A stretch of DNA of 64,000 nucleotides from the NCBI GenBank assembly GCA_046753605.1, contig JBHHTZ010000001.1, forward strand, positions 1,244 to 65,243, given 5' to 3'. Below the pieces are notes generated by a model, which did not search any database, was not told the DNA's origin, and saw nothing but the letters and a program-made list of their open reading frames with translations. Positions 38,462 through 61,111 of this stretch are shown here, piece after piece. Numbering within the stretch: the stretch's first letter is position 1; each line of letters begins with the position of its first letter. The translations under genes and the position numbers were made by a program. The stretch comes from Anaerolineae bacterium (GTDB taxonomy: Bacteria > Chloroflexota > Anaerolineae > Epilineales > JAANWY01).

Positions 38462-39084
38462 CGCTGCAAGGCAAGCGGGTGGTGGTTCTCGGCTCCTCCT
38501 CGGTTGGAGAGCGAGGCACCGGAGCCCTCGGCCGGGCGCTGCGAGAGCTGCTGCCAGGCGCGCAGCTGCAGTTTATTGGCAGAAGCGGACACGGTTTCGC
38601 GGGTTCTGCAGGTAAACGGTTGGCGGGCACCGTAGCTCAACGACGTTCACTGCTGATGAAACTACGTGAGTCGGAACCTTTCGATCTGGTGCTGGTCGCG
38701 ATGGGCAGCAACCCGACGGGCACCGCTGCGCAGCTGCGCGAGGCCATGCAGTGGTTCGTCTCCCAGGTCGGCCCGGGTCGCGTGCTCTGGGTCGGACCTC
38801 CGGTTTACTTGTCCGCGTACCACCAGCGGATCACCGACACCTACGACACGGTGGGCCGGCAGGTGCTCGGTGCCAGGTACGCCAGCTCGCGCGACTGGAC
38901 CTACCCCGACTGGGGTCGCGCGCGGGACCGGGTGCACTTCACGCTCGACGGCGCGCGGAAATGGGCGCAGGGGATTGTCTCCTGGTTGGGGAGACAATCC
39001 ACGGGCGGTGGTGGTGTCGCGGCGTTGTTGGTAGTAGCAGTGGCAGGGACTGCAATTTATCTTTTGCGCAAACGCAAAAGATAG
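38458..39084 (+). CDS. SGNH/GDSL-family hydrolase with C-terminal TM anchor
   Basis: GTG start overlapping the upstream stop; block I VVVLGSSSV, block III LVLVAMGSNP, block V DRVHFT; C-terminal AALLVVAVAGTAIYLL. Confidence 0.6.
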   Translation: MTLQGKRVVVLGSSSVGERGTGALGRALRELLPGAQLQFIGRSGHGFAGSAGKRLAGTVAQRRSLLMKLRESEPFDLVLVAMGSNPTGTAAQLREAMQWFVSQVGPGRVLWVGPPVYLSAYHQRITDTYDTVGRQVLGARYASSRDWTYPDWGRARDRVHFTLDGARKWAQGIVSWLGRQSTGGGGVAALLVVAVAGTAIYLLRKRKR

Positions 39085-40996: not shown

Positions 40997-41620
40997 GTGA
41001 TTTTTCATTTTTACTCCTATAGCGCATTGCAAACGCTGCTCTCTGTTCTACTCGCCAAGGGGGACGTCCTCACCCGGGACGGATCCGGTAACCTCGTCCG
41101 CGTCCCGGTGGGCCTGGACGGCCAGCAGCTGACGGCCAACGGCGCAGATCCCAACGGCATCGACTGGCAGGCCGGCACCGTCGCCCCGGTCGATACCGTC
41201 TTCGGTCGAGTCGGAAACGTGGTCGCCGCCCTGAGCGACTACGATGCCTCGCAGGTGGATAACGACTCCGGGGTCGCGGGTGGTACGGTCAAGGATGCCC
41301 TGGACACGCTCGCGGCCTTGATTCTGACGCCGGCCGACAAAGATCTGGTGGCCCGGGTCACCGCGGCCGATGGTGCCAAAGCCACCAACAGCACCATTTC
41401 CGGCACCCCGACCGGATACGTGCTGGTCATGGTCAACGGCCTCCTGGTCACCGTGGGCGACGGCGTGAAGACCAAGGAGTGCTACTTCTCGGGGGATGCA
41501 GGGGTCACAGCCCGCACCATCAGCGCCATCGTCGCGGGCGACGAGTTGTACTGGAACGGCTCGGTCGCCGGATACCAACTGGATGCGTCTGATCGCATCA
41601 GTCTAAACTACGAAACCTAG
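40997..41620 (+). CDS. Putative tail-fibre-like structural protein
   Basis: 207-aa Gly/Thr/Ala/Val-rich ORF (GTG start) at the start of the virion module. Confidence 0.45.
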   Translation: MIFHFYSYSALQTLLSVLLAKGDVLTRDGSGNLVRVPVGLDGQQLTANGADPNGIDWQAGTVAPVDTVFGRVGNVVAALSDYDASQVDNDSGVAGGTVKDALDTLAALILTPADKDLVARVTAADGAKATNSTISGTPTGYVLVMVNGLLVTVGDGVKTKECYFSGDAGVTARTISAIVAGDELYWNGSVAGYQLDASDRISLNYET

Positions 41621-42004: not shown

Positions 42005-42493
42005 ATGTTCAGGTCAAAACAGATAGCCCAAGACGGTGCTTCGGTCGGAGACATCTTCACCTGGGACGGGTCGAAGTGGGCTCCTGGTTCTGTTTCTGGC
42101 AGCGCAATCATCATGTTCGGCGCTCAGAACATCAGCGCGGCCATCGCTACTCGATATCTCTACCCGGGTTTTTCTAACAACCAGGCTCCTACGGCTCCTC
42201 CTGCTCCCGATACCCCCCCTTCGTACAGGGTACCTCGCGCCGGGACGATCAGGCGATTGTATCTTCGTCAGAACGACCCAAGAGGTAACGGAAACGTCAT
42301 CATCTATACCCTCATGAAGAACGGGGTGGCTACCGCTCTCATGGTGACGATAGCATCTACGGCTTACGATGCGAGCGATCTTGTTAACAGCGTAGCTGTT
42401 GCCCAGGGAGACTTACTCTCCTTGCAGTCCAACCATCTTATAGGGCTCGGTACTAGCCCCTACGACATCTACGCGACGATGGAGTACTTGTAA
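42005..42493 (+). CDS. Hypothetical virion protein
   Basis: 162-aa ORF whose stop overlaps the next start (ATGA). Confidence 0.5.
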   Translation: MFRSKQIAQDGASVGDIFTWDGSKWAPGSVSGSAIIMFGAQNISAAIATRYLYPGFSNNQAPTAPPAPDTPPSYRVPRAGTIRRLYLRQNDPRGNGNVIIYTLMKNGVATALMVTIASTAYDASDLVNSVAVAQGDLLSLQSNHLIGLGTSPYDIYATMEYL

Positions 42494-44265
42494 TGCCTAT
42501 CTATAGATATCGTGTAAAAGGAACAGACATCGAGAGGTTGAATAGTCTCCTCCCTAATCACAGCGTCAGTATGCGATCGCTCACTCCAAGGGTTCTGGTA
42601 GATCTGGAAGCGGAAGTAGCAGATAAGGAAAACATCGATGAAATCATGACCACTTGTGGATATGCTTTCGTCGAAACAGATCCCGCAAATGAAGAATCTA
42701 CCGATATCAAAACGTTCTTGGACAACACCGGAATAGTCTTAGACAGCGCCTCTGGGTTGAAAGGTCGTTTTACCGACATAGAGGCCATGAGGGCAACAAG
42801 GGAACTGACAAATTCAAGTTCCAACCCCATACACTGCAACAGTTTTACCCCATTGAAAACCGATGGGCCTCTACACATATACGTCAGAGACGATATCGGG
42901 GACGACGCCAATTCGGGAACGATAGCTGCGCCAGTGAAAACTGTCGAAGAGGCCATTTCACGGATTCCTCTGATAGTGAATCATTCGGTGTTTGTCCACT
43001 TGGGTAGTCACCCTGGCGCTGGCTGGGGCTACCCACGTTTCGAGAAAAGCAGAACACTCAACGCAAATATCTACATCATCGGAGATGGTGCAGGCGAGCC
43101 AGGCGTTGATGGGTTCACGGAGATTGTGTCTTCGACTGCAGCACTGGCGGGGTCAAATATAAATACCGTCAAAGGTGCCGGCATGACGCCCGGTGATTAC
43201 GATGGCTACACTTTGGAAATTCTCACAGGTGCAGCTGCGGGAGACAGAAGGACCATTCGAAACAACACTGTGACGGATATTGTTTCTGCTCGTGGTTTTT
43301 CTGCGGCCGTGAGTGCGGCTGATTTATACCGAATACTCAGACCGTCTATAAAAATAAACTTCCTATCCCCTGACACCAACGATGTCATGCTGGAAAATAC
43401 CGGGAGCGGTGACGATAGGATATTCTCGGTAATGTATTTCTACAACAAAACACATTCAGTGTGGCTTATCAATGTTGGCCTGGTAGACACGCTCTTTAGT
43501 TATGTAGCTATATCCATGGTTCGATCTTGCTTGACACTCATGGGGGTAGAATTCGATTGCTCCTCGCCTCACATAGAAATCGATCGTTCAACCCTGAAGA
43601 TGGGTGTAGAAGGATACTACGATCCGACTTACTCAGGTGGCGTTCCATCAGCCGTAGATGATTTTGGAGCACCCAGTCCACTGTCCTGGGCAGGGTGGGG
43701 TGCTTTTACAAGAGGATCCGCTGCTTCTTTGGCATCCTTTACGGGCGGACATATATATGGCGTATTCTGTTCAACAATGCTTGTTACGCCGGCAAATACT
43801 AAATGGTGGCTCAGTGGGGGGCACCTGGCTCTGGGTTGCGGTGTTGTAAGAGAGTCGTATCCTGATACACATATCATTTTATACGACGAACCGTTTACTT
43901 CTTCTGCAGCAGTACTCCTTGGAAACAATGCCGGATTATCAGGCATTACCGCTTGCGTTCAGATGGGTTCCGGTTTTGCAGAAGTTGCAAATTGTGCTCT
44001 GTACGGAGATGGTGATGGACTCGTGGCTCAGCAGTTCGGGACAATACACGAGTCCCTGAGTACGGGTACCGTAGGAGGTTACGGAGTCCTCACTCGATGG
44101 AATGGTCAGGTTTATTACGATCATCAACCTAAAATTGTAGGGGGGCTTGGTGATCTGTCAGTAAACAACGGACGCACCGCGCACTCTCGCACTCTTCTAA
44201 CTGATGTGCATACGGCACTTGTGGACAAAATACACGGTAAAATATTCAGGAACGACAACACATGA
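42493..44265 (+). CDS. Putative tail fibre/tailspike (beta-helix-like composition)
   Basis: 590-aa Gly/Ser/Thr/Asn-rich ORF with repetitive beta-strand-like segments; no Walker motifs. Confidence 0.5.
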   Translation: MPIYRYRVKGTDIERLNSLLPNHSVSMRSLTPRVLVDLEAEVADKENIDEIMTTCGYAFVETDPANEESTDIKTFLDNTGIVLDSASGLKGRFTDIEAMRATRELTNSSSNPIHCNSFTPLKTDGPLHIYVRDDIGDDANSGTIAAPVKTVEEAISRIPLIVNHSVFVHLGSHPGAGWGYPRFEKSRTLNANIYIIGDGAGEPGVDGFTEIVSSTAALAGSNINTVKGAGMTPGDYDGYTLEILTGAAAGDRRTIRNNTVTDIVSARGFSAAVSAADLYRILRPSIKINFLSPDTNDVMLENTGSGDDRIFSVMYFYNKTHSVWLINVGLVDTLFSYVAISMVRSCLTLMGVEFDCSSPHIEIDRSTLKMGVEGYYDPTYSGGVPSAVDDFGAPSPLSWAGWGAFTRGSAASLASFTGGHIYGVFCSTMLVTPANTKWWLSGGHLALGCGVVRESYPDTHIILYDEPFTSSAAVLLGNNAGLSGITACVQMGSGFAEVANCALYGDGDGLVAQQFGTIHESLSTGTVGGYGVLTRWNGQVYYDHQPKIVGGLGDLSVNNGRTAHSRTLLTDVHTALVDKIHGKIFRNDNT

Positions 44266-44600
44266 GACTGGCTGACAAAAAAATAGGCAATCTCACTGCG
44301 AGTGAGATTTTCTTTTTCAAACTCTTCCTAGACTCTGTTGTCTTCACCATCGATTTCTCTCAGAGTCGTTGCATCGCCCTGGTTGCAGCAACGGCCCAAA
44401 CCGTACTGATCATAAAGAAAAATGGCGTACAGGTGGGGACAATCACATTCGCTGCTGCTGGAACGGTTGGCGTATTCGGAGGCGCTCCCGCTGATGTAAC
44501 ATGCGTTGCTGGAGACTATCTCACCATCGAAGGCCCAGCGGTTCCAGATGTGACTCTTGCGGATATTGCTGCAACTCTGTTTGGGGAAAGATTTTTATAG
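44262..44600 (+). CDS. Hypothetical protein
   Basis: 112-aa ORF overlapping the previous stop. Confidence 0.4.
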   Translation: MRLADKKIGNLTASEIFFFKLFLDSVVFTIDFSQSRCIALVAATAQTVLIIKKNGVQVGTITFAAAGTVGVFGGAPADVTCVAGDYLTIEGPAVPDVTLADIAATLFGERFL

Positions 44601-45001: not shown

Positions 45002-45718
45002 ATGTCGACACTGCAGATCGTTTACGGCCTCGCGGGTATTGCGATGGGGTTGCGCACCGTATCGAATGGGTTGAAGAGCCGAGAGGCAGACAGGAAAGCT
45101 CGTCTGGGGCGACTACCCCCTGTTGGCTTCCAAGGACGATCTGTTCAGAAGCCATCTCGGCAGCCCCTGAGTGACGTTTTTTTCAACACGCCATCTGGTC
45201 GGATCCGGCTGCGCACCTACAACATCCGCAACCTCGACGAGCGCATTGCACACCTACGAAAGCTCGCCAAGGCCGGAAAAAAGGATCCGCAAGTTTACGA
45301 ATTTGTTCGGCGCGTGGTCAACGGCAAATGCGGCAACACGTGGTGTATACCGGAAAAAGACAACGTCGCGGAGGCCCGAGCCCTGTTCAATGCCATTCGC
45401 AAGAACGTCCGGTACACCTCCGACATCGCCGGCATCGACAGTTACCAAAAGCCCCGCCATACGCTGGCCATGCGTGGCGGGGACTGTGACGACTACAGCA
45501 CGCTGGCGTGCGCGGCCGCGGGTGCTATTGGCATCCCTTGCCGGTTCAAGGTCATAAGAACGCAGGGAGCGCCCACGTGGAACCACATCTACGCCCAGCT
45601 CGGGTTTCCACGTCGTATGCCACGAAAATGGATCTCGTTTGATGCGAGTGTCCCGATGCCTTTCGGGTGGGAGCCGCCGCCGCGCATGGTCGCAGCCTCG
45701 CGCGTGTTCCCTACTTGA
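45002..45718 (+). CDS. Transglutaminase-like cysteine protease domain protein
   Basis: RGGDCDDYSTLACAAAGAIGIPCRFKV matches the transglutaminase-like core G.C.D[FY]...L.RA.GIPAR. Confidence 0.6.
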   Translation: MSTLQIVYGLAGIAMGLRTVSNGLKSREADRKARLGRLPPVGFQGRSVQKPSRQPLSDVFFNTPSGRIRLRTYNIRNLDERIAHLRKLAKAGKKDPQVYEFVRRVVNGKCGNTWCIPEKDNVAEARALFNAIRKNVRYTSDIAGIDSYQKPRHTLAMRGGDCDDYSTLACAAAGAIGIPCRFKVIRTQGAPTWNHIYAQLGFPRRMPRKWISFDASVPMPFGWEPPPRMVAASRVFPT

Positions 45719-46576: not shown

Positions 46577-47224
46577 ATGGCGATGCAACCCATCGAAGGA
46601 CAGCCGGGCATTTTCAAGGATTCCGAAACCGGCCAGTATCTCAACATTCGCGACTTCCGCGAGACGGACAAGTGGGACACGGTGGCGGTTCCGGCAGGCG
46701 AGATCGTTCCCGGCACCCAGTTCATCTTCTTCGCCGACATCCAGGCGAAGCGCGAGGCCGATACCAACATCAAGACCCCCCGCAAGCTGTCCAGCGGCGA
46801 GTCGATGGTGCTGGACCGCATCGGTCTGTATGCGAGGCTCGTGACCGGAAATATCGTCACCGTTCCGAGGGATATCAAGAAGGTATTCGACAACGCATAC
46901 TACAGGATGAAGATAAACGATCTGCTCCAAGACGAAGGGCCAGCGATCAAGTTTCCCTCTGCGTATGGCATGTACGGGCAGACCACCGAGCCGGATGCCG
47001 GTATCGTTTCGATCGGCGTACCGGCCACGGCCTCGGCAAGCCGTCTCGTCAAGCGCCAGCTGCTGAACCAGAACCATGAGTTGGAAGGCCTGTTGCGCTT
47101 CGACCCGCGGACCTGGCTTGGACAGCAGAACCCGCCCATCAACTACGCCAATCCCGTGCTGGATGAGCCCCTGCTCGTGACCAACTTCCTGCACGGTCTG
47201 GTGAGGTCGGCCGTAACGAAGTAG
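46577..47224 (+). CDS. Probable abundant structural protein
   Basis: 215-aa ORF with strong RBS acaggagaagaaaccaATG, followed by a very strong terminator. Confidence 0.5.
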   Translation: MAMQPIEGQPGIFKDSETGQYLNIRDFRETDKWDTVAVPAGEIVPGTQFIFFADIQAKREADTNIKTPRKLSSGESMVLDRIGLYARLVTGNIVTVPRDIKKVFDNAYYRMKINDLLQDEGPAIKFPSAYGMYGQTTEPDAGIVSIGVPATASASRLVKRQLLNQNHELEGLLRFDPRTWLGQQNPPINYANPVLDEPLLVTNFLHGLVRSAVTK

Positions 47225-47944: not shown

Positions 47945-48367
47945 GTGGGATTACTCGGCGTTGACCTCAACAAGGATCCAGGCACCGGGAACCTGAATCT
48001 TAGGGCGTGCTTCGCTGCTATCGTGGGTCCGAGTCGAGTGGCCCACGGTCGGCGTTCGGTCGTGCGGGTTCAGGCTGGCCGGCCTGTTCTCATCCTGGGT
48101 AACAAGACCCAGGAAGAGACGATGTACTTCGAGGTCTGGCTACCTCAGAGTAGCATCCTGGCGCTGCCTGGCGGGGGCGCGTTCCTCGGGCTGATGTCCG
48201 GTGAGACGGGCGGGCAGACTGCGGTGCAGACGCTGTTCAACGCGACGCAGCGGTACTCGGGTGTGTTGCTTCCGAGCGAGCAGGTATTCGCCGAAGCCGT
48301 GACGGACGCCCTCGGCGGCGCTCTGGCGGCCCAGGTGCCGGTGGTGGTTTCCTCGGTGGTGTTCTGA
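47945..48367 (+). CDS. Hypothetical protein
   Basis: 140-aa ORF (non-ATG start in the track). Confidence 0.4.
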   Translation: MGLLGVDLNKDPGTGNLNLRACFAAIVGPSRVAHGRRSVVRVQAGRPVLILGNKTQEETMYFEVWLPQSSILALPGGGAFLGLMSGETGGQTAVQTLFNATQRYSGVLLPSEQVFAEAVTDALGGALAAQVPVVVSSVVF

Positions 48368-51300
48368 TGCCTTACCAGGACGCGCATCTGCTGGACTACC
48401 TGGGCGACTTCGCGATGGGCGACTTCGAGGCCACCAAGGCCTTGGTCCAGAGCGGGTTGCAGCAGTACACGGTAGCGGACCTGCAGTTGATCTTGGCCGA
48501 TCTCGGGTGGAAGACCTCCATGGTGCCTGTCTCGCCCATGGCGGACTTCGGTCTGTTCGGCCCGAAGACCGCGCGAGCCTGGGGACAGTCGGCCAGAAAG
48601 CGCAAGCTCAACCCGACGTTCCAGCGCGCGGGCCCCACCTCGGCGTATGCCCATCCTGCCACCGTGCGCGCCCTTGCCCAGGTGGCGAAGAGAGCGGTTC
48701 CGACGGCCGTGGTCGGCCCGAAGCTCGCGCCGGTCATTGCCAAGCCCGCTCCGGCTCCGAAGCCTAAGCCCGCGCCGGCACCCGCGCCAGCGCCGGCCGT
48801 GCAGCTGCACACCCGAGGGGTGACGGGGCTGCAGAACATCCTGTACGCCCTGGGTTGGACGACGAAGAAGCTGCCCAGGTCGAAGACGTACAGCCCGAAG
48901 CTCACCTGGGCCTGGGGCGTGTCGGCCAAGACCCGCAAGCTCAATCCGGTGTTGAAGCCGGCGAAGTACGAGGACTCGGCGTTGGTCGATTTCGCCACCT
49001 ATACCCAGATGGAGAAAGAGGCGGCCGCGAAGGTAGTCAAGAAGGACGCGCCGCCCGCAGAGAGGGAGAAGCCCGGCACGGTGGTCGAGTCCGTGTTGGA
49101 GCTACAGGACATCCTCTTCGGCGTCGGCTGGACTACCAAGAAGCTCGCGCGCGACGGGGACTACGGTCCACAGACCCGCAAGGCGTGGAGGATCTCTGCG
49201 AGGAAGCGAAAGCTGCCGACGACGTTCGAGCGCGTGGACGGCAAGACGGCCCGGGTCGCCCAGAAGGCCTACGACGTGCTCAAGGCTGCCGGAGCGCGCA
49301 GGGTTCCGACGCCCGCGCCCGCGCCCGAGCCCGAATCCGCCCCGACTCCGGTAGTGGGTATCAAGAAGCCCGTTGCCGACACTCAGAAGGTGCTGGCCCG
49401 GCTCGGCTGGCGGTCCAGAACGGTGCCGCACAAGGGCGCGAAGGATTTTGGCCTGTACGGCCCGAAGACGAAGAGCGCGTGGGAGTCCTCGGCTACCAAG
49501 CGTAAACTCAACCCGTTGTACCAGCGCGTGGATGGCAAGACCGTATTGGTCGACCCCAAGACCTACGTGGCGTTGTTGCAGGCGGGGCGCGAGAAGGTCG
49601 AGCCCACGACGCCGCCGGCCGACGTGGTCAAGAGTTCCGTGGCCGACGCGCAGCGTGTGATGATCGCGCTGGGCGTGCCGGAGTCGTTGGTGCCGCGACC
49701 GGGTGCTAAGGACTTCGGTCTGTACGGCCCGAAGACCCGAGGGGCGTGGCAGAAGGAAGCGGCCAAGCTTAAGCTCGACCCCAGGTTCGACCGGGTGGAC
49801 GGCAAGACGGTCAAGCTCAACAAGAAGACCTTCGACAAGCTCGAAGAGGTGGCGAAGATGCACGCGCCGCCGCTCGCGCCCACTCCTGTACCCGTGCCTG
49901 TGCCCGAGCCCGATCATGTTCCGGTGCCGGTCGGGATGGTTGCAAAGCCGGTCGCGGAGTTGCAGCATATCTTGATCAAGCTCGGCTGGATGTCTAGAAC
50001 TGTCCCGCGGCCGACGGCGAAGGATTTCGGTCTGTACGGCCCCAAGACCCGAGGGGCGTGGCAGTCCTCGGCGACCAAGCGCAAGCTTGACCCGCGCTTC
50101 GACCGCGTTGACGGTCGCACGGCCAGGGTCAACGAGCGCACCTACTTGAAGCTGTCAGCGGTAACGGGCAAGAAACCCGAGCCCACCCCGAAGCTGACGC
50201 CGGGTAAGCCGGTCGATGCGATCACGATCTTCGTCTCCGATATGCAGGACATCGTCCACGCCCTGGGCGTACCCGATACGCGGGCCACGACGGACGACAA
50301 GTTCGGGCCGAAGACGAAGCGGGCATGGGAGAAGGTGGCCACCGCTCGCAAGCTCAACCCGGGTATGACGGGCAAGCGGGGAGCCAAGCAGGTCCAGGTG
50401 GTGAGGGAGACGTATAACGTCTTGAAAGCTGCTGCGTTTCTGCCGAAGCCGCCGCCCGCGCCTGTGTCCAAGTCCAGGGTGCAGACCGAGGTCATTTCTG
50501 TCATGACCGTGCAGCGCGGCTTGAACAAGCTCGCGAAGGCCAAGCTCGACGAGGACGGCACCTGGGGCCCGAAGACCAGCAGGGCGTTGCGTTTCTGGCT
50601 CAACAAGCAGCCGGGAGGCAAGGCTGTCAACGTGGTCATCGTTGCCCGGGGCATAGGTACGGGCAAGATCCGTCTGCCGAAGACCTTCGTAGAGGTGTTG
50701 CGTTCGGCGGCCGTGGTCGCGCCGCCCCCGCCTGTTCCGCCTGCTCCGAAGGAGAAGGACGAAGAGCAGAAGGCGATAGATACTATCTTGAAGTTAGCGA
50801 CGGAGCGCGTCCCGGTGCTCACCGTACAGCGCGCGTTGATCTTCTTGCACAACTTTGACCCGAAGAAGTATCCGGCAGTCAAGCTCACCGGCACCTGGGA
50901 TCCTGCAACGCTGGAAGCGTTCATGATGGGAACCAAGGACAAGCTGCCCCCCATGCTGCAGAAGGCGTGGCGCAAGGCGTTGCCGCAGCTGCTGAGTGTA
51001 GACAATCGGACGCTCAAGTTGACGCTGGCCGATGCGAGAGTGGTACGAGACGGCGAGGCGAAATGGAAGAAGGCCCAGGAGAAGCCGAAGCCACCGCCGG
51101 TACCTGTGCCCAAGCCCAATTCCACGCCGACGCCTGTGCCGACTCCGACCCCGACTCCGACTCCGACGCCCACGCCCGCGCCCGAGCCGGAACCGGACTT
51201 GCCCGATTACGATGTGCCTGGCGACGAGCCTGACGTGTTTCCACCTGGCGGTGGTGGTGCTCCGGGGGTTCCGCCGGGCACAGCTATTCAAGCTGCGCAG

Positions 51301-51978
51301 GTGTGGGAAGGCGCTCTGCGGGCGCTCAACTCGTTGAGGATAGACGGGGCGCGCATTGCCAGCGAGATAAACAAGAGCCTGGAAGAGGGCGAGGTCTTGA
51401 CGTCCAAGGGCGAGCAGTTGCTCAACGCCTGGCTGAACGCGGCCGAGCGCCTCAAGCAGCGTGTTGCGCAGATCATCGAGGGAAGTCCCCAGGTAATGTC
51501 GGCTCTGGACGCGGCCGGCGGTGGCAGCATGTCGGGACTCATGGGCTACTTCGGAGATCTGTCCGGTACGGCGACCGAGGTGTTGTCGGTGCTCAAGACT
51601 CCGTTGGTTGAGGGCGGCCTGTCCGAGTGCGAGGGCTGTCCCCCGGTCGGTCTGGGAGCTGTTCCGGTGGCGGCGGTTGCCATGCGTCTCGGTGGCGCGG
51701 CCTGGGGCAAGCTCGTGCAGCTGCTTTCCTTGCCGGTCGTTCGCGCTGCGACCGTGACGTATATAGGTGTAAAGGGCGTGGGAGACGCACTGAACGCGGA
51801 CACGGCAGCCTACCGGGACATCACCACCAGGCTCAACGATGCCGTGGCCAAGGGAGAAATGACTGCAGAGGAGGCAAAAGGGTTGCGTCCTACTCGTCCC
51901 GCGGGCGGTGCTGCAATCGCAGTGGTAGGGGTTGTGGCCCTGGGAGGTCTGGCGTTATATTTACGGGGCAAGAAGTAG
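48367..51978 (+). CDS. Giant virion/internal protein with at least eight tandem PG_binding_1-like modules and C-terminal TM segments
   Basis: Repeated about 65-aa modules LQ.IL..LGW.....P...AKDFGLYGPKT..AW..SA.KRKL.P.F.RVDGKT separated by PAPAP/PTPVP linkers; C-terminal hydrophobic helices. Confidence 0.75.
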   Translation: MPYQDAHLLDYLGDFAMGDFEATKALVQSGLQQYTVADLQLILADLGWKTSMVPVSPMADFGLFGPKTARAWGQSARKRKLNPTFQRAGPTSAYAHPATVRALAQVAKRAVPTAVVGPKLAPVIAKPAPAPKPKPAPAPAPAPAVQLHTRGVTGLQNILYALGWTTKKLPRSKTYSPKLTWAWGVSAKTRKLNPVLKPAKYEDSALVDFATYTQMEKEAAAKVVKKDAPPAEREKPGTVVESVLELQDILFGVGWTTKKLARDGDYGPQTRKAWRISARKRKLPTTFERVDGKTARVAQKAYDVLKAAGARRVPTPAPAPEPESAPTPVVGIKKPVADTQKVLARLGWRSRTVPHKGAKDFGLYGPKTKSAWESSATKRKLNPLYQRVDGKTVLVDPKTYVALLQAGREKVEPTTPPADVVKSSVADAQRVMIALGVPESLVPRPGAKDFGLYGPKTRGAWQKEAAKLKLDPRFDRVDGKTVKLNKKTFDKLEEVAKMHAPPLAPTPVPVPVPEPDHVPVPVGMVAKPVAELQHILIKLGWMSRTVPRPTAKDFGLYGPKTRGAWQSSATKRKLDPRFDRVDGRTARVNERTYLKLSAVTGKKPEPTPKLTPGKPVDAITIFVSDMQDIVHALGVPDTRATTDDKFGPKTKRAWEKVATARKLNPGMTGKRGAKQVQVVRETYNVLKAAAFLPKPPPAPVSKSRVQTEVISVMTVQRGLNKLAKAKLDEDGTWGPKTSRALRFWLNKQPGGKAVNVVIVARGIGTGKIRLPKTFVEVLRSAAVVAPPPPVPPAPKEKDEEQKAIDTILKLATERVPVLTVQRALIFLHNFDPKKYPAVKLTGTWDPATLEAFMMGTKDKLPPMLQKAWRKALPQLLSVDNRTLKLTLADARVVRDGEAKWKKAQEKPKPPPVPVPKPNSTPTPVPTPTPTPTPTPTPAPEPEPDLPDYDVPGDEPDVFPPGGGGAPGVPPGTAIQAAQVWEGALRALNSLRIDGARIASEINKSLEEGEVLTSKGEQLLNAWLNAAERLKQRVAQIIEGSPQVMSALDAAGGGSMSGLMGYFGDLSGTATEVLSVLKTPLVEGGLSECEGCPPVGLGAVPVAAVAMRLGGAAWGKLVQLLSLPVVRAATVTYIGVKGVGDALNADTAAYRDITTRLNDAVAKGEMTAEEAKGLRPTRPAGGAAIAVVGVVALGGLALYLRGKK
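48430..50900 (+). repeat. Nucleotide-level tandem repeats encoding the peptidoglycan-binding modules
   Basis: Near-identical segments, e.g. aggacttcggtctgtacggcccgaagacccgaggggcgtggcag at 49711 and 50021. Confidence 0.7.
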
Positions 51979-51993: not shown

Positions 51994-53184
51994 ATGCGAC
52001 TCGGTGAAGAGATTGCGGTGTTGGACGGCTTTGACGATCTGGGGCAGGTGTACTCGAAAGACCTGAACCGCCTGATGGCCATCCCGAGCTACTACGAAAC
52101 CGGCCCTCAGTTCGGTGTGACGGCCGGTCAGAACCTGACCGGGGGCAGCACCTGGAATCCGCTGCTTCCGCTCACGCCGAGTAACGCGGGGTTGGCCGGG
52201 GCAGATCTGCCACCGGCCGATGCGGACCTCATGGGAGCAGCCGATGCGTTGGCGCAGCGAGGGAAGGGCTACCATCGTGCCATCCCGAGCAGCTACAACG
52301 CCGGAGCGGTGTTCGACCCGACCTCGGGGCAGAACTACAAGGGCGGCAGCAGCTGGGATCCTCTGATGCCGCTGACGCCGAGTGTTTCGGATCTGGCGCA
52401 GGTGCCGGATGTCGACTTGGCGCAGGTCTATACGAAGAACCTGAACCGGCTCAAGGGCATCCCCAACTACTACGCCGTCCCGAACCAGTTCGACATCACG
52501 GCCGGGCAGAACCTGACCGGGGGCAGCACCTGGGATCCGCTGCTTCCGCTCACGCCGAGCAGTGCGGGTCTGGCCGACGCCTACGACGGGCACCGGCTCG
52601 AAGACATCGACAAGCACTACGGCAGTACGCTCGACAAGATGCCGGGCTACTACGACAAGGGTGCCCAGTTCGATCCGAGTGGCGGGCAGTACTCGGGCGG
52701 CAGCAGCTGGGATCCGCGTTTGCCGCTCACGCCGAGCAGCTCGGGCCTTGCGGAGCTGTCGATCGTCGAGCCGATGGACGGTATCTTCGACAACGTCTTC
52801 AAGGCGAAGCTCTACCGCAGCCAGCTCCCGGCGTTCCGGCGCGCGGCCTCGCGCGGCAAGTTGCTGGCGGCCAAGAAGAAGGCCGTGAGCGCGTTGAAGC
52901 GCGGAGACGCCAGGTCTGCTGCCAAGTACGGGAGCCTGGTGAAGCGTATGCGCTCCATGCGGCGCAGCATCCTGAAGCCTGCTGGAATCAAGAAGCTCAA
53001 GGCGGCAAGGGCGGCGGCCTTGCGGCATGCCGCACCTGCTCGGGGGCTGGCACCTGACAAGGTTGCGGAGATCTTTCGGTCGGCTTCTCCGGTGGGGAAA
53101 AAGGCCATGTTCGAAAAGGCGGTGAGTCGTCGGGGACCTGCCATCAGCAGGGCGAGGGTTCCGGTTCACTCTTTCAGGTTCTGA
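51994..53184 (+). CDS. Repeat-containing virion protein
   Basis: Four tandem about 45-aa repeats QF(D/G)(V/I)TAGQNLTGGS(T/S)W(N/D)PL(L/M)PLTPS(S/N)AGLA; basic C-terminus. Confidence 0.6.
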   Translation: MRLGEEIAVLDGFDDLGQVYSKDLNRLMAIPSYYETGPQFGVTAGQNLTGGSTWNPLLPLTPSNAGLAGADLPPADADLMGAADALAQRGKGYHRAIPSSYNAGAVFDPTSGQNYKGGSSWDPLMPLTPSVSDLAQVPDVDLAQVYTKNLNRLKGIPNYYAVPNQFDITAGQNLTGGSTWDPLLPLTPSSAGLADAYDGHRLEDIDKHYGSTLDKMPGYYDKGAQFDPSGGQYSGGSSWDPRLPLTPSSSGLAELSIVEPMDGIFDNVFKAKLYRSQLPAFRRAASRGKLLAAKKKAVSALKRGDARSAAKYGSLVKRMRSMRRSILKPAGIKKLKAARAAALRHAAPARGLAPDKVAEIFRSASPVGKKAMFEKAVSRRGPAISRARVPVHSFRF

Positions 53185-53196
53185 TAGGAGGCGCGG

Positions 53197-55782
53197 ATGG
53201 ATCGTCAGCAAGCAGCGCAGTACCTGGCCACCTTCGACTTCGGTCTGGGCGGCCTTGACGACACGTTGCTGGATGCTGACGGGGAGCTACTGGGTTGCAG
53301 TGCCTGCGGTGGCCTGGGGGAATTCATCGGCTCTTCGTTGTCGTCGAGTGCTGTCAAGGACGCTCAGAAGGTAGTGGCAGCGGCTGCCACACCAGGCACG
53401 GAAACGACGAAGGTCGTAGCCGGCAAGCTCGCCCGCAAGGGCGTGGAGCTGGGCAAGATCGCCCACGACCGCGCCCAGGTGGCGTACAAGGCCACGCAGA
53501 AACGCGATCAGCTGGCCAAGAAGGTCGAGAAGCTGCAGCCCAAGGTCGACAAGTTGCTGGCGAGCGACAACCCGAAGAGCAGGGAAGCGGGTGAGGCGTT
53601 GAAGCAGGACCAGTACTCCGCGGCTCGTGCCGCGGTGCGTCTGGAAAAGGTCAACGCCATGGCTTCCGGGATGGCAGAGAATGCGGCAGCGCAAGCGGTG
53701 ATTGCGCAGCAGATAGCTGGCAGCGTCATTGCCGGCAAGCCCGCGCTCACCGGGACATTGACCAGCATGTACAACAAGCTCGGGCAGTCTTCGGCGAGTA
53801 TGCGGAAGGTGCGTAAAGAGCAGATCGTCAGGAGTGCCGATGTCCTCGACCAGGATAAGCTCCGTGCTTTGTTGGCGCGCAAGCGGGCGCTGTTGCAGAA
53901 GAGGGTGGACATCGAGGTGCTGCTCACGTGTGATCCCCGCACGCAGAACTCCGGTAATCTCCGCAAGCAGCAACAGCACCTCTCCATTCAGGTCGCTGCG
54001 ATCAATGCTGAAGTCAGCAAGCTCTGCAAACCCCCGCGGCCGCATTCCCTTGACGAGCTTGAGTGGGCCGGCGGCCTCGGTGAGGCGGTTCTTGCTGGTG
54101 TGGAAGCTGGTCTGGCAGCAAAGTTTGATCCCAAGGCTGCAGCAGCTCGTAGACGAGCGGCACAGGCAGCGAAAAATCGAGAGCCTATTCTAGACGCACG
54201 TTTCAATAACGCGCGCAACAAGGGCTGGATACGTCTTACAAACAGGTCGAGGCTTCGGAAGAGTTTCCATCCTGGGATACGGAACATGCCCTCCATCCAT
54301 GTGTCTGGCGACCTAGATCTCAAAATTGTGCAGGCCGCGCAGGGCGCGTTCAAGTACAACCCGAGGTTCCCCGGGGGCAAGCAGTTCCTTCCCGACGTTC
54401 GTCCTCTGCTGAAAGGGCAGCTAGGTGTTGTAGAGCAGAGACTGGGCAGGAAGCTGACCAGGGACGAAAGGGATGCGTTGTTGTGGCCACAGACGCACTC
54501 TCCGCAGGAAATAGCCAAAGCAATGAAGGCGGCTGAACATAAGAGAAGGAGGGACTACCGTCGGATGGTGGAAAAGAGCGGCTCGCTCTACCGTGTGCCC
54601 GTCGTTGGCGACGTGCTGAACACCACAAAGGCCGTGGCCAAGCCGATAGTCAATGTCGCCAAGGCAGCTGCAGAGACTGCGATACTGCCGGCCACCACGG
54701 CGGTCAAGCTCGTGACGAAGGGTCCTGCAGCGGCCATCAAGAACATCTCGCGCACGATGAAGCGCAGCTTCAACACCGTGCGCAAGGCTGCGGGGCAGCT
54801 CTTTGTAGGGCTTCCCTGCCAGATAGCCAATTCGACGGTGGGTAAGGCCGCGATGCAGATCGGCGCGGCTGCTGTTGGCACCGCGATAGGTGGCCCTGCC
54901 GACACCGTGGGAGGAGCAGTGGCGGCGAACCATTCGCAGGCGGTGACCAAGGCCGCGTGCGGAGGGCTCAAGGAGATAGGGCTTGATAAGGGTGACTTCA
55001 GGACCAGCAAGCTCGGGTCCGCGCTCGAGCACACGGCAATGGGTATCGGGAAGAACCTCGCCGACCCGAAGGCCCTGTTGAAGGATGCGCAGAGCATCGG
55101 CACCGCGTTTATCCCTGGCGGGGCCAGCGCCACCGGTCTGCTCAACAAGTACGGTGGCGAGCAGCTTCAGAAGCTCGGCGTGGGGCAGATCGCAAAGAAC
55201 ATCTCCATACCCGGGGGCGCAACCAAGCTGCTCAGGTCGGCAGGGGTGCCCACCAGCGCCGGAGCTATTCTCAGGAAGGCCGGCTTGCCTTCAGATACAG
55301 GTAGTCTGCTCAAGGCTGCAGGGGTGTCGCCGAATATCAAGGGTGTACTCAAGAGAGCAGGGGTGCCGACAGATCTACCGAGCATGGTCAAGGCGACCCA
55401 GATACTCCAAAAAATGAACATCCCTGCGACTCCGGGAGCCATCGCTCGGGCTATGAATGTCGAGCCCATCCCCATCCCCGGAATGCCTGGTAAGTTCCGG
55501 CTGCCCAGGGTGTTGCCCAAGCAGCTGAACATCAAGCAGATCCAGCAGAGCGCCATGCGCAGAGCGAACCTTGTGAAGCAGGCCCACATAAAGCGTATTG
55601 CAGCCATCGGACGGGCTCGTGCGCTCAGGGGGACCGTGCCGCAGCCGGTCGCGGCCCAGCGGGCGAGGGCCCGCCGGTTGCCACCCCCGCCCCCGCCCCC
55701 GCGTCCGAGAGCTTTACCTCGCGTTACCTTTGCGAGAGGATCCGTGGCCAGGCAGCTGATGCCGTATGTCGGCCGGGGATAG
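53197..55782 (+). CDS. Large alpha-helical/coiled-coil protein (tape-measure-like or internal ejection protein)
   Basis: 861 aa, Ala/Lys/Gln-rich heptad-like segments, Gly-rich hydrophobic stretch AAVGTAIGGPADTVGGAVAA, Pro-rich C-terminus. Confidence 0.55.
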   Translation: MDRQQAAQYLATFDFGLGGLDDTLLDADGELLGCSACGGLGEFIGSSLSSSAVKDAQKVVAAAATPGTETTKVVAGKLARKGVELGKIAHDRAQVAYKATQKRDQLAKKVEKLQPKVDKLLASDNPKSREAGEALKQDQYSAARAAVRLEKVNAMASGMAENAAAQAVIAQQIAGSVIAGKPALTGTLTSMYNKLGQSSASMRKVRKEQIVRSADVLDQDKLRALLARKRALLQKRVDIEVLLTCDPRTQNSGNLRKQQQHLSIQVAAINAEVSKLCKPPRPHSLDELEWAGGLGEAVLAGVEAGLAAKFDPKAAAARRRAAQAAKNREPILDARFNNARNKGWIRLTNRSRLRKSFHPGIRNMPSIHVSGDLDLKIVQAAQGAFKYNPRFPGGKQFLPDVRPLLKGQLGVVEQRLGRKLTRDERDALLWPQTHSPQEIAKAMKAAEHKRRRDYRRMVEKSGSLYRVPVVGDVLNTTKAVAKPIVNVAKAAAETAILPATTAVKLVTKGPAAAIKNISRTMKRSFNTVRKAAGQLFVGLPCQIANSTVGKAAMQIGAAAVGTAIGGPADTVGGAVAANHSQAVTKAACGGLKEIGLDKGDFRTSKLGSALEHTAMGIGKNLADPKALLKDAQSIGTAFIPGGASATGLLNKYGGEQLQKLGVGQIAKNISIPGGATKLLRSAGVPTSAGAILRKAGLPSDTGSLLKAAGVSPNIKGVLKRAGVPTDLPSMVKATQILQKMNIPATPGAIARAMNVEPIPIPGMPGKFRLPRVLPKQLNIKQIQQSAMRRANLVKQAHIKRIAAIGRARALRGTVPQPVAAQRARARRLPPPPPPPRPRALPRVTFARGSVARQLMPYVGRG

Positions 55783-58595: not shown

Positions 58596-59180
58596 GTGGT
58601 GATAAAGACGGTAAGTCCATATTCCCAGCAGTGGGGGCAGTTCTTCATGCTGCTGAGTTCCAATGCGCCGATCTCTCCGACGGTGGTCGAGGGTCTGGTG
58701 CGCGAGGCGCTGCTCGACTGGGACCTGGGGGCTTTCTCTGTCTATCAGACCACGACCCTGGTGGAGACGGACAGCAACCCGGGAGAGGGCGGCACGATCA
58801 AGCAGCTCACCGGCCCCTGGGCCGGCCGGGACATGCCGGGCACCTCGGTCATGGCGCTCAAGGCTGTCGGCCGCACCAAGAAGCGCACCACGCTGTTGGA
58901 GCTTCCCACGGGGGAGACAGATCTCGGCCGCGCGCGAGCGGCCATCCGTAAAGAGGTCTACCCCAGGCTCAGAGCGCAGGGGATTTACGTTTCGTACTTC
59001 GGTTTCAGCCCGTACGGAGCGCCTTCCGTGTCCATGCAGAGACTCGACAAGGATCTGCCGGCCACACCGCCTATTCCGCCCGAGCCTGAAATGAGCACTT
59101 CCTGGTGGGCGTACCTGGGCGCTCTGGGCCTGGCAGGCCTGGCAGCAGTGCTGATAAAGCAGAAACGAGACGAGAGATGA
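58596..59180 (+). CDS. Hypothetical protein with C-terminal TM anchor
   Basis: 194 aa; C-terminal WWAYLGALGLAGLAAVLI. Confidence 0.5.
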   Translation: MVIKTVSPYSQQWGQFFMLLSSNAPISPTVVEGLVREALLDWDLGAFSVYQTTTLVETDSNPGEGGTIKQLTGPWAGRDMPGTSVMALKAVGRTKKRTTLLELPTGETDLGRARAAIRKEVYPRLRAQGIYVSYFGFSPYGAPSVSMQRLDKDLPATPPIPPEPEMSTSWWAYLGALGLAGLAAVLIKQKRDER

Positions 59181-59974: not shown

Positions 59975-60745
59975 ATGTTACAGGCCTTTTCAGCAAGCGA
60001 CATATCCAGGGGCTCGAAGGACTTCGAGCAGCTCAACAACGCTATCGTGGCCGCCAGCCGCCTGGGGCCGGCCTGGGCCAAGCTCGCCGACGACTGGAAC
60101 ACCCAGGTGTTCGAGAAGCGAGCCGAGCTGTCGGTCCTGGCTCCGGTCTGGCGAGGCAAGCTCAACGAGTACTGGGAGAAGTACACGTCGTTGTGGGTGG
60201 CCAACAACGGGCCGGGGGGAATACCGGACCCGATGTCGATAGCGCCGACCGGCACGCCCGCGGCGCTGGTGGCCTCGTACCAGACCAAGGTCGAGGCGGT
60301 GAAGGCCAAGCCCGTGCCGCCGGTCGATCTCACCGAGGGCCAGGAAGCACTCAGGCGGCCGGTAGCGGAGTTGCAGGCCATCCTGCGCAAGCTCGGCTAC
60401 CCTGCGACCACCGCCTACAGCGATGGGCTGTACAGCCAGAAAACCAAAGCGGCCTGGCAGACCTCGGCCAAGAGCCGGGGGCTGAACCCCCAGTTCGACA
60501 AGGCCAGCGGGACCGAGGCCTACGTGAACGCCACCACGTTCACGGCTTTACGCAACGTCAAGCCGGTCATCCCTCTCGGTAAGTCAGGTATGCTGAGTCC
60601 GGTTCCTGGGCCGGAACCCGGCCCGGTATCTGCTCCTGCCACCGGGGGAGGTGTTCCTGTCGGCACGTTGCTGGTAGGTGTGGCGGCGCTTGGTTTGGGC
60701 GCGTGGTGGTTCATTCAGCAAAAGGAGCCCGCTTACGCGGTGTAG
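59975..60745 (+). CDS. Membrane-anchored protein with PG_binding_1-like domain
   Basis: LQAILRKLGYPATTAYSDGLYSQKTKAAWQTSAKSRGLNPQFD resembles the modules of the giant protein; C-terminal TM; N-terminal region paralogous to 61604..62155. Confidence 0.55.
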   Translation: MLQAFSASDISRGSKDFEQLNNAIVAASRLGPAWAKLADDWNTQVFEKRAELSVLAPVWRGKLNEYWEKYTSLWVANNGPGGIPDPMSIAPTGTPAALVASYQTKVEAVKAKPVPPVDLTEGQEALRRPVAELQAILRKLGYPATTAYSDGLYSQKTKAAWQTSAKSRGLNPQFDKASGTEAYVNATTFTALRNVKPVIPLGKSGMLSPVPGPEPGPVSAPATGGGVPVGTLLVGVAALGLGAWWFIQQKEPAYAV

Positions 60746-60748
60746 ATC

Positions 60749-61111
60749 ATGAGATATATTCCCAGCGAAAAAATGTTGCGCAACGTCCTGTTGGGCGTGT
60801 TGCAGAAAACCCACCGAGACCCCGACGACGCCATCAAGGAGTTGCGCAGGATGCTCGTGTACTGGCGGGACGGGCGCATCAAGAGCAGGAAGTTGCTTGA
60901 GGGTGTCAACGAAATCCTCGAAGGGTTCGGGGTCGAGTACATCAGATCCAGAGACGACGACCAGTACGGAGCACACGGCGCGTACTACATCAACCAGGGT
61001 GACACCTATGACCCCACCATCTTGCTCGATCTGGACCGCAACCGGGTCTGGGCCACCAGCTGGGGCGACTGGGTCGAGTCCGAGGAGAGACAGGGCAAGA
61101 AGTTCGACTGA
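60749..61111 (+). CDS. Hypothetical protein
   Basis: 120-aa ORF. Confidence 0.45.
   Translation: MRYIPSEKMLRNVLLGVLQKTHRDPDDAIKELRRMLVYWRDGRIKSRKLLEGVNEILEGFGVEYIRSRDDDQYGAHGAYYINQGDTYDPTILLDLDRNRVWATSWGDWVESEERQGKKFD

What the first reader, a model, noticed from the sequence alone, without database searches (positions are those of the whole stretch)
48367..51978. 1203-aa protein built from at least eight tandem peptidoglycan-binding-like modules
The ORF consists almost entirely of about 65-aa modules (LQ.IL..LGW...P...KDFGLYGPKT..AW..SA.KRKL.P.F.RVDGKT) that resemble the PG_binding_1 domain of the window's own endolysin. They are separated by Pro-Ala/Pro-Thr/Pro-Val linkers, and the protein ends in hydrophobic segments. 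The repeats are also visible at the nucleotide level. It sits in the virion/internal-protein block, upstream of a 396-aa repeat protein and an 861-aa coiled-coil protein. A long flexible array of peptidoglycan-binding units could act as a cell-wall-spanning anchor or ruler during DNA ejection. That would be an unusual architecture for an ejection or tape-measure-like protein.
Basis: seen in the sequence. Interest (0 to 1): 0.7.

Follow-up and report, generated by a model that had tools for sequence, protein, structure and literature searches.

The report
Membrane-anchored array of peptidoglycan-binding modules
A 1203-residue protein of an uncultivated, virus-like 73-kb element strings nine peptidoglycan-binding-type domains on proline-rich linkers and ends in one membrane anchor; it probably tethers the virus's entry machinery to the host cell wall, but that role is inferred, not shown.

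Summary
ORF 48367-51978 (+) encodes 1203 aa. It has seven clearly related ~72-aa modules and two divergent ones, joined by Pro-rich linkers. After these come a Pro/Gly spacer, a ~200-aa helical and partly hydrophobic domain, one strong C-terminal transmembrane helix and a basic tail.

The protein belongs to a rare, metagenome-only family with conserved gene order. Complete relatives carry 3 to 7 main-type modules.

The functional reading is only partly supported. The protein has no signal peptide and no catalytic domain. It lies in a tightly packed operon next to a highly conserved protein whose medium-confidence model looks like a jelly-roll. No terminase, portal, HK97 capsid or tape-measure gene is recognisable in about 73 kb. 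A virion-borne, membrane-inserting cell-wall tether is the best explanation (about 0.4). A tape-measure or ruler role is not supported. I rate it a new variant of a known kind.

The parts
48367..48459 (+). Conserved acidic N-terminal segment (residues 1-31; family motif YL.EFA.GDFEA...QSGL). It has no hydrophobic signal peptide.
   Evidence: It is conserved in all close homologues (alignment A4). An HMM of it scores 40 bits on this protein and hits no other window protein. The first hydropathy peak is at residue 1088.
48460..48687 (+). Module M1 (residues 32-107), PG_binding_1-like
   Evidence: 80 bits with the HMM built from homologues only. Present in all close homologues at 56-62% identity.
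48808..49023 (+). Module M2 (residues 148-219). Its signature motif is degenerate (YSPKL).
   Evidence: 73 bits. Conserved by position.
49081..49293 (+). Module M3 (residues 239-309), with the canonical DGDYGPQT motif
   Evidence: 101 bits. On its own it gives weak Pfam PG_binding_3 and PG_binding_1 hits.
49360..49587 (+). Module M4 (residues 332-407)
   Evidence: 90 bits.
49627..49854 (+). Module M5 (residues 421-496), an extra copy seen only in this window's protein
   Evidence: 74 bits. It aligns to gaps in all seven close homologues. It is 51-61% identical to M4 and M6.
49939..50166 (+). Module M6 (residues 525-600). This is the module that was modelled.
50221..50436 (+). Module M7 (residues 619-690)
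   Evidence: 75 bits. Present in some homologues and absent in others.
50467..50736 (+). Divergent module M8 (residues ~701-790). It holds the protein's best Pfam PG_binding_1 stretch (712-742).
   Evidence: hhalign of the M8 type against the main type gives 95% probability, E 2.8e-8.
50800..51081 (+). Divergent module M9 (residues ~812-905; motif VPVL.VQ..L...TG.WD..T..AF). It is the module found most widely in distant relatives.
   Evidence: Found in 18 family members, including L017, P0016 and P0017. hhalign against the main type is weak: 54%, E 1.3e-4.
51082..51291 (+). Pro/Thr/Gly-rich low-complexity spacer (residues 906-975; 39% Pro)
   Evidence: In homologues the same position is Gly-rich or Pro-rich and varies in length.
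51292..51882 (+). Conserved C-terminal domain (residues 976-1172). Amphipathic helices are followed by a Gly/Ala-rich, moderately hydrophobic stretch (1094-1135) and a short LV.EGKLT.EEA motif.
   Evidence: Alignment A8. 29 cluster representatives at E<1e-30 among 1.84 billion proteins; the near-full-length matches lie at the C-terminal end of 700-1200-aa proteins or in short probable fragments. The only PDB hits are weak and coiled-coil-like.
51883..51978 (+). C-terminal transmembrane helix (residues 1179-1199), basic tail RGKK and the stop codon
   Evidence: Hydropathy peak of 2.24. The TM plus basic tail is conserved throughout the family.
45002..45718 (+). First gene of the conserved block: a transglutaminase-core (papain-like) protein with an N-terminal hydrophobic segment
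   Evidence: Pfam Transglut_core at 1.6e-14. It holds the same position in L001, L003, L010, L017 and L019.
46577..47224 (+). 215-aa beta-rich protein. It had the most homologues of the two window proteins searched. Possibly a jelly-roll capsid or shell protein.
47945..48367 (+). 140-aa upstream gene. Its stop codon overlaps the start codon of the array gene (TGATG).
   Evidence: Orthologues occupy the same position in all related loci.
51994..53184 (+). 396-aa downstream protein with four ~50-aa repeats and a strongly basic tail
   Evidence: 36 K+R against 4 D+E in the last 130 aa. A ~400-aa orthologue follows the array gene in L001, L003 and L019.
53197..55782 (+). 861-aa downstream protein with a helical, charged N-terminal half and a basic tail
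   Evidence: 23 K+R against 1 D+E in the last 110 aa. L019 has an 849-aa orthologue.
59975..60745 (+). A second protein (256 aa) carrying one module of the same type, followed by a C-terminal transmembrane anchor
   Evidence: 86 bits with the module HMM, at about residues 125-194 of the 256-aa protein (142-211 of the stop-to-stop frame). The same protein occurs in L015 and L016. Its N-terminal domain is paralogous to that of the 183-aa protein at 61604-62155.

Best explanation
The gene encodes a tail-anchored structural protein of an uncultivated virus-like element of about 73 kb.

Shown or predicted here:
- Nine PG_binding_1-fold domains form a beads-on-a-string array of about 870 residues with net charge +79. 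The fold is modelled for M6 and inferred by homology for the others, only weakly for M9.
- The array is followed by a Pro-rich spacer, a helical and partly hydrophobic domain, one transmembrane helix and a short basic tail.
- There is no signal peptide and no catalytic domain.
- The gene is translationally coupled within a conserved operon.

Inferred mechanism:
- The protein is carried in the virion, either as an ejected internal protein or as a protein of an internal viral membrane.
- At infection, its C-terminal hydrophobic part inserts into, or stays in, a membrane.
- The multivalent array grips the peptidoglycan and fixes the genome-delivery conduit to the cell wall. This resembles the way PG-binding domains anchor trans-envelope machines such as the type II secretion protein ExeA/GspA (my own knowledge).
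- The papain-like Transglut_core membrane protein at the head of the same block may supply local wall cleavage.
- Many weak-binding modules on flexible linkers would give avidity and reach, not a fixed length.
For: Fold and repeats:
- Pfam PG_binding_1 scores 56 bits against a cut-off of 23.
- The AF2 model of M6 has pLDDT 94.5.
- Seven of nine modules keep the [FYW]-G-P-x-T signature.

Topology:
- No N-terminal hydrophobic segment; a single strong TM at 1179-1199 followed by RGKK.
- A cell-made copy therefore has no evident route to the wall. Delivery from outside would solve this.

Context:
- The start codon overlaps the upstream stop (TGATG), and a strong RBS precedes the next gene.
- The gene order Transglut_core, ~200-aa TM protein, 215 aa, ~200 aa, ~140 aa, array, ~400 aa is conserved in L001, L003 and L019, and also in L017, where a 664-aa, 3-module protein fills the array position and 263-aa and 366-aa genes follow. 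L010 keeps the same order from Transglut_core through the array gene but has 263-aa and 403-aa ORFs after it.
- The 215-aa neighbour is highly conserved and looks like a jelly-roll.
- The two downstream proteins have DNA-binding-like basic tails.
- Tail-fibre-like and beta-helix-like genes lie a few kb upstream.

Family:
- The N-terminal motif, M1-M4, M8, M9 and the C-domain are conserved by position, while the middle modules come and go. This fits avidity or reach being tunable.
- A second tail-anchored protein carries one module of the same type.
Against: - No experimental or proteomic evidence places the protein in a virion.
- The type of virion is unknown. No terminase, portal, HK97 capsid, tail tube, sheath or tape-measure gene is recognisable in about 73 kb.
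- The strong positive charge would suit DNA binding equally well.
- The basic residues after the TM helix predict an N-out topology, which is hard to reach from inside a cell. This is an argument from difficulty, not positive evidence for ejection.
Confidence: 0.4

Rival explanations
1. Virion-surface adhesin. The array is displayed on the outside of the particle, anchored through its C-terminal TM and hydrophobic domain in a viral membrane or vertex. It binds exposed cell-wall peptidoglycan of a single-membrane host as a primary or secondary receptor-binding step, not as an anchor during ejection.
For: - It uses the same fold, array and TM evidence.
- A protein identical to the 215-aa neighbour is named in NCBI as from an 'Anaerolineae bacterium' MAG. 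Chloroflexota are generally regarded as lacking an outer membrane (my own knowledge), so the wall could be reachable from outside.
- A large ectodomain, a C-terminal TM and a short basic tail are the typical layout of viral envelope spikes (established knowledge).
- Module number varies between relatives, as expected for host-range proteins.
Against: - There is no signal peptide to place a 1170-residue ectodomain outside a membrane.
- The host assignment is a MAG bin label only.
- A separate low-GC cassette with tail-fibre-like and beta-helix-like proteins at 42005-44600 already looks like the receptor-binding module.
- The array is conserved by position across relatives and is not hypervariable.
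Confidence: 0.15
2. A membrane protein that acts in the infected cell and is not in the virion. It could hold the inner membrane to the wall as part of a lysis or egress device, an assembly-site scaffold, or a superinfection-exclusion barrier.
For: - The + strand block holds many small tail-anchored proteins (313, 194, 256, 166 and 183 aa). Such proteins are common in lysis and exclusion cassettes.
- One of them carries the same module.
- No neighbouring gene is a proven virion gene.
Against: - With no signal peptide, and with the basic tail after the only TM, the PG-binding array would sit in the cytoplasm or would need an unknown export route.
- The amidase endolysin lies about 26 kb away, next to the primase gene (21360-22184), not next to this gene.
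- The gene is embedded between the most conserved structural-looking genes, with overlapping stop and start codons.
Confidence: 0.2
3. Internal DNA-condensing or core protein. The three-helix modules have been repurposed as basic DNA-binding beads that are packed with the genome. The PG_binding_1 fold is ancestry, not function.
For: - Net charge is +79 over residues 32-905, and each module carries +6 to +11.
- The two downstream proteins also have very basic tails.
- No packaging ATPase is recognisable. Jelly-roll viruses without packaging ATPases (SPV1, FLiP) are known (PMC8812541).
Against: - The PG_binding_1 signature (hydrophobic helix 1, [FYW]GP.T, A-W) is maintained across modules and across distant relatives.
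- The Pfam match is mainly to these motif positions.
- PG-binding domains of endolysins are often basic too (my own knowledge).
- A C-terminal TM anchor is not expected for a nucleoid protein.
Confidence: 0.12
4. Tape-measure or ruler protein of a tailed phage. Array length would set tail or channel length.
For: - Its size (1203 aa) and C-terminal hydrophobic segments recall tape-measure proteins such as T5 Pb2 (my own knowledge).
- Tail-fibre-like PHROG hits exist in the element.
Against: - There is no TMP hit in PHROGs or Pfam.
- No tail tube, chaperone or baseplate genes flank it.
- The body consists of globular domains on Pro-rich linkers, not a continuous helix.
- Module number ranges from 3 to 7 in otherwise syntenic relatives.
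Confidence: 0.04

Closest known systems
PG_binding_1 (Pfam PF01471) cell-wall-binding domains of endolysins and wall enzymes, such as phiKZ gp144 (3bkh), Burkholderia phage AP3 endolysin (5nm7) and the SleB N-domain (6tci)
   Different: Those proteins have one or two copies fused to a catalytic domain. Here there are nine copies and no catalytic domain. Each module adds a short N-terminal strand and a beta-hairpin before helix 3. Single modules score below the Pfam cut-off. The protein ends in a membrane anchor.
ExeA/GspA-type PG-binding anchors of the type II secretion system (EpsAB periplasmic domain, 4g54)
   Different: ExeA has an N-terminal cytoplasmic ATPase, a mid-protein TM and a single periplasmic PG-binding domain (my own knowledge). 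There is no sequence homology outside the module and no viral context.
Ejected or internal envelope-penetration proteins of phages: T7 gp14/gp15/gp16, T5 Pb2, and the PRD1 membrane proteins P7/P11/P14/P18/P32
   Same: These are large virion-carried proteins that insert hydrophobic segments into host membranes and deal with the peptidoglycan during DNA entry (established knowledge). The proposed role is similar, and the size is similar to Pb2 and gp16.
   Different: Those proteins act on the wall through catalytic domains (a transglycosylase in gp16 and P7, a peptidase in Pb2), not through arrays of binding domains. No sequence similarity was found. Virion location is unproven here.
Bacterial multi-repeat PG_binding_1 proteins
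   Same: Tandem repeats of the same domain family occur in bacterial wall enzymes (my own knowledge; not tested here).
   Different: As far as I know, no described case has 7-9 copies with a C-terminal TM anchor inside a viral operon. Literature searches found none.

Membership tests
PG_binding_1 domain (PF01471) | Sequence match above the Pfam gathering score | tested here: met
   The whole protein scores 56 bits against a cut-off of 23. Caveat: each isolated module scores only 13-16 bits and matches only profile positions 3-35.
PG_binding_1 domain (PF01471) | Three-helix-bundle fold of solved PG_binding_1 domains | tested here: met
   [not shown]
PG_binding_1 domain (PF01471) | Conserved D-G-x-[FYW]-G-x-x-T loop motif | tested here: met
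   The [FYW]GP.T core of the motif is present in M1 and M3-M8. M9 keeps G.WD..T and M2 is degenerate (YSPKL).
PG_binding_1 domain (PF01471) | Binds peptidoglycan | not testable with these tools
   This needs a sacculus pull-down or similar assay with recombinant modules.
Phage tape-measure protein | Match to TMP families, and a long, mostly helical body | tested here: not met
   There are no TMP hits in Pfam or PHROGs. The body is made of globular modules on Pro-rich linkers.
Phage tape-measure protein | Position between tail-assembly chaperone genes and distal tail or baseplate genes | tested here: not met
   The flanking genes have no tail-related hits. The upstream genes are conserved beta-rich proteins of 215, ~200 and 140 aa.
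T7-type internal core / ejection proteins (gp14-gp16) | Sequence homology or a lytic transglycosylase domain | tested here: not met
   There is no such Pfam or PHROG hit and no tblastn match in 50,697 phage records.
T7-type internal core / ejection proteins (gp14-gp16) | Presence inside the capsid and ejection into the host envelope | not testable with these tools
   This needs virion proteomics or cryo-ET of a cultivated relative.
Membrane proteins of internal-membrane viruses (PRD1-like DNA-delivery proteins) | Encoded in a virus with a jelly-roll capsid protein and an internal membrane | tested here: inconclusive
   [not shown]
Endolysin | A catalytic muralytic domain | tested here: not met
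   The only PHROG endolysin hits run through the binding-module region. No catalytic domain is found. The window's amidase is a different gene, at 21360-22184.

The most novel reading that the evidence does not exclude
The array protein is an integral protein of the internal membrane of a new lineage of large (about 70-100 kb), possibly non-tailed bacterial viruses. In this reading the shell is built from small jelly-roll proteins and the genome is packed without a terminase or an FtsK-type ATPase. At infection the membrane-anchored array of PG-binding domains would hold a membrane-derived delivery tube in the cell wall. That would be a non-enzymatic, avidity-based solution to crossing peptidoglycan.
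Probability: 0.12. Interest if true: 0.9.

Novelty: new variant of a known kind. Interest (0 to 1): 0.6.

Why it matters
Known phage proteins that deal with the cell wall during entry do so with enzymes. A large, non-catalytic, multivalent wall-binding array fixed to a membrane would be a different strategy: holding on instead of cutting through.

The family also marks an uncultivated virus lineage in which no packaging or capsid gene can be recognised. The protein is a convenient handle for finding, classifying and eventually isolating these viruses.

The modules are small, confidently modelled and occur in natural series of 3 to 7. They could also serve as tunable cell-wall-binding reagents.

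Tried and rejected
1. Close relatives among known phages. Megablast and tblastn against 50,697 phage records found nothing. IMG/VR scans with the single protein and with alignment A4 found nothing. GTDB representative genomes gave nothing.
2. A shared N-terminal 'targeting' motif. By eye, the array protein and the 214-, 396- and 861-aa neighbours seemed to share one. An HMM of the family's N-terminus hits only the array protein, so I dropped the idea.
3. Paralogy among the 215-, ~200- and 140-aa neighbours, as in paired jelly-roll capsid genes. hhalign probabilities were below 1%.
4. A packaging ATPase. The only Walker-A motifs are in the RecD-like helicase and the D5 primase.
5. Identity of the C-terminal domain. 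Against PDB sequences, the profile gave only weak coiled-coil-like matches, to the chemoreceptor signalling domain (2e-4) and apolipophorin. The weaker multi-stretch hits in the 1.84-billion-protein search are probably mostly due to a short LV.EGKLT.EQA repeat seen in the two inspected (P0161, P0166), which are otherwise unrelated in sequence.
6. Broadening the family with the M9 alignment. No hit passed the threshold.
7. BFVD fold search of the 215-aa model. All hits had E > 1e-3 and TM < 0.4.
8. Endolysin reading. Rejected, because there is no catalytic domain.
9. Tape-measure reading. Rejected; see the membership test.
10. Literature searches for a described equivalent found none.

Full report
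**1. The observation**

The ORF listing and translation confirm an ATG-initiated ORF at 48367-51978 on the + strand, encoding 1203 aa. A motif scan and alignment show nine modules.

- M1-M7 lie at residues 32-107, 148-219, 239-309, 332-407, 421-496, 525-600 and 619-690. They are 26-61% identical to each other.
- M8 (~701-790) and M9 (~812-905) are divergent.
- To avoid circularity I built an HMM from 60 modules of homologous proteins only. It scores the window's M1-M7 at 73-101 bits each, M8 at 12 bits and M9 at 3 bits. The best whole-protein score among 200 shuffles of the protein is 7 bits.
- Profile-profile comparison ties the M8 type to the main type (95%, E 2.8e-8, N-terminal half only). 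It ties the M9 type only weakly (54%, E 1.3e-4).
- At the DNA level there are six copies of an 89-nt core, 61-73% identical, spaced 267-333 nt apart. These are old duplications, not recent ones.
- Linkers are 10-40 aa long and rich in Pro, Ala, Thr and Val.

**2. The fold**

- Pfam reports PG_binding_1 for the whole protein at 56 bits (cut-off 23), and PG_binding_3 at 37.8 bits.
- Isolated modules reach only 13-16 bits and match only the first half of the profile.
- I aligned 67 modules from the family and modelled M6 with AlphaFold2. Mean pLDDT is 94.5, and the topology is strand-helix-helix-hairpin-helix.
The fold claim stands, on a predicted structure.

**3. The rest of the protein**

- Residues 1-31 are acidic and conserved across the family (YL.EFA.GDFEA..QSGL). 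There is no signal peptide: the first hydropathy peak is at residue 1088.
- After M9 comes a spacer that is 39% proline (906-975).
- A conserved ~200-aa domain follows (976-1172), with amphipathic helices and a Gly/Ala-rich, moderately hydrophobic stretch (1094-1135).
- The protein ends with one strong transmembrane helix (1179-1199) and RGKK.
- The array carries a net charge of +79.
- No catalytic domain is detectable.

**4. The family**

- The 5.8-billion-protein search found 17 homologues of 872-1147 aa.
- A profile of the C-terminal domain found only 29 cluster representatives at E<1e-30 among 1.84 billion proteins. The near-full-length matches lie at the C-terminal end of 700-1200-aa proteins or in short probable fragments.
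- There are no relatives in INPHARED, IMG/VR or GTDB representative genomes. Nine loci turned up in JGI metagenomes.
- In the alignment of close homologues, the N-terminal motif, M1-M4, M8, M9 and the C-domain are conserved by position. M5 is unique to this window, and M6 and M7 are present or absent.
- Complete relatives carry 3 (L017), 4 (L012, L019), 5 (L001, L011), 6 (L003, L010) or 7 (window) main-type modules.
- The distant relatives P0016, P0017 and L017 lack the helical C-domain. They keep the modules, the M9 type, a low-complexity spacer and the terminal TM helix plus basic tail.
- In P0008 and P0013 a chagasin-like Inhibitor_I42 domain is inserted in the array.

**5. Context**

The window is most of a ~73-kb element. 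L007 adds 1.1 kb on the left and L004 adds 8.2 kb on the right. A protein identical to the 215-aa neighbour is on a 73,773-bp NCBI contig labelled 'Anaerolineae bacterium' MAG.

- The left third of the window holds replication genes: a RecD-like helicase, PolA, an SNF2-like helicase, a PD-(D/E)XK nuclease, a D5 primase, thymidylate synthase and an Amidase_2 endolysin.
- The array gene lies in a + strand block whose gene order is conserved in L001, L003, L017 and L019: Transglut_core, a ~200-aa TM protein, 215 aa, ~200 aa, ~140 aa, the array, then ~400 aa (263 and 366 aa in L017). L010 keeps this order through the array gene, which is followed there by 263-aa and 403-aa ORFs. In L001, L017 and L019 a tyrosine recombinase and a ~720-aa protein precede the block.
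- The array's start codon overlaps the upstream stop (TGATG). The next gene has an AAGGAGG ribosome-binding site.
- The 215-aa protein had the most homologues of the two window proteins searched: 264, of which the 120 listed are 63-100% identical.
- The two downstream proteins (396 and 861 aa) end in very basic tails.
- A low-GC island (42005-44600) encodes tail-fibre-like and beta-helix-like proteins.
- Across the roughly 73 kb seen there is no recognisable terminase, portal, HK97 capsid, protease, tube, sheath or tape-measure gene. No Walker-A protein exists apart from the helicase and the primase.
- The statement that the gene sits in 'the virion/internal-protein block' is therefore reasonable but not established.

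**6. Mechanism**

A PG-binding array can act only where there is peptidoglycan. The protein has no signal peptide, and its only transmembrane helix is at the extreme C-terminus, followed by basic residues. A copy made in the cytoplasm therefore has no evident route to the wall.

The simplest way out is delivery from outside, as part of the particle, either ejected or carried on a viral membrane. The C-terminal hydrophobic part would sit in a membrane while the array binds the wall. Multivalency on flexible linkers gives avidity and reach. I estimate about 100 nm if fully extended, from 241 linker and spacer residues plus nine ~3-nm domains. That is far more than an envelope width, which argues against a strict ruler.

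I give this explanation about 0.4. The rivals are:
- an infected-cell membrane protein acting in lysis, egress or exclusion (0.2);
- a surface adhesin for an exposed wall (0.15);
- a basic DNA-condensing core protein that reuses the fold (0.12);
- a tape measure (0.04).

**7. Comparison and novelty**

The module is a member of the PG_binding_1 superfamily by score, predicted fold and motif. Its binding activity is untested.

The protein as a whole is not an endolysin, because it has no catalytic domain. It is not a tape-measure protein, because it lacks the family match, the helical body and the gene context. It shows no homology to T7, T5 or PRD1 entry proteins.

I found no description in the searchable literature of a viral protein with 7-9 non-catalytic PG-binding modules and a C-terminal membrane anchor. 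I rate it a new variant of a known kind.

The most novel reading still open is that it is an internal-membrane protein of a new lineage of large jelly-roll viruses that lack a packaging ATPase. Jelly-roll viruses without packaging ATPases are known (SPV1 and FLiP; PMC8812541). I put this at about 0.12.

Noticed in passing
whole window, plus L007 1-1087 and L004 12398-20552: About 73 kb of a virus-like element has phage-type replication genes, an amidase and tail-fibre-like genes. It has no recognisable terminase, portal, HK97 capsid, protease, tail tube or tape-measure gene. The only Walker-A proteins are the helicase and the primase. Relatives sit on contigs of 69-102 kb.
   Followed up: partly
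[not shown]
   Followed up: partly
window 59975-60745 (also L015, L016): A 256-aa protein carries a single module of exactly the array's type (86 bits), followed by a Pro-rich linker and a C-terminal TM anchor. Its N-terminal domain is paralogous to that of the 183-aa tail-anchored protein at 61604-62155 (36% identity, E 3e-20).
   Followed up: partly
window 38143-39084, 47945-48367, 58596-59180, 59975-60745, 61111-61611, 61604-62155: The + strand block holds an unusual number of proteins with a hydrophobic segment at or near the C-terminus. Most have a single C-terminal TM helix followed by basic residues. The 140-aa protein (47945-48367) ends in a hydrophobic stretch with no basic tail. This hints at a membrane-rich particle or a large set of host-membrane effectors.
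   Followed up: no
window 42005-44600: A low-GC island (0.495, against ~0.61 in the flanks) encodes a 162-aa tail-fibre-like protein, a 590-aa beta-helix-like protein and a 112-aa protein. It is probably a horizontally exchanged receptor-binding cassette. The 207-aa protein at 40997-41620 has a fibre-type N-terminal motif.
   Followed up: partly
window 30948-34071 (- strand); L001 3041-6021; L017 5245-8337; L019 5406-8504: A tyrosine recombinase (~300-330 aa) is always paired with a ~690-725-aa protein of unknown function that has low-complexity regions. In relatives the pair sits directly upstream of the structural-looking block on the same strand. In the window it is inverted and about 11 kb away.
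   Followed up: no
window 51994-53184 and 53197-55782: The 396-aa protein has four ~50-aa repeats (…YY..G.QF…GG.SW.P..PLTPS…) and a tail with 36 K+R against 4 D+E. The 861-aa protein ends with 23 K+R against 1 D+E and a poly-proline run. Both look like nucleic-acid-binding internal proteins.
   Followed up: partly
P0008, P0013 (array homologues); L001 14845-15198; window 45002-45718: A chagasin-like Inhibitor_I42 domain is inserted into the array in two homologues and is a separate tail-anchored protein in L001. The block starts with a papain-like Transglut_core protein. Together they may be a protease/inhibitor pair.
   Followed up: no
window 21360-22184: The Amidase_2 endolysin has an N-terminal PG_binding_1-like motif (LQNALVEKGY…DGVLGNETW). 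It lies directly after the primase gene, on the replication-gene side of the window and about 26 kb from the array gene.
   Followed up: partly
window 51800-51880 (residues ~1145-1172): A short motif, LNDAVAKGEMTAEEAKGL, lies just before the TM helix. In the 1.84-billion-protein search it matches multi-copy LV.EGKLT.EQA repeats in the two weaker hits I inspected (P0161, P0166), which are otherwise unrelated in sequence. P0161 looks like a VirB10/DotG-type protein by eye.
   Followed up: no
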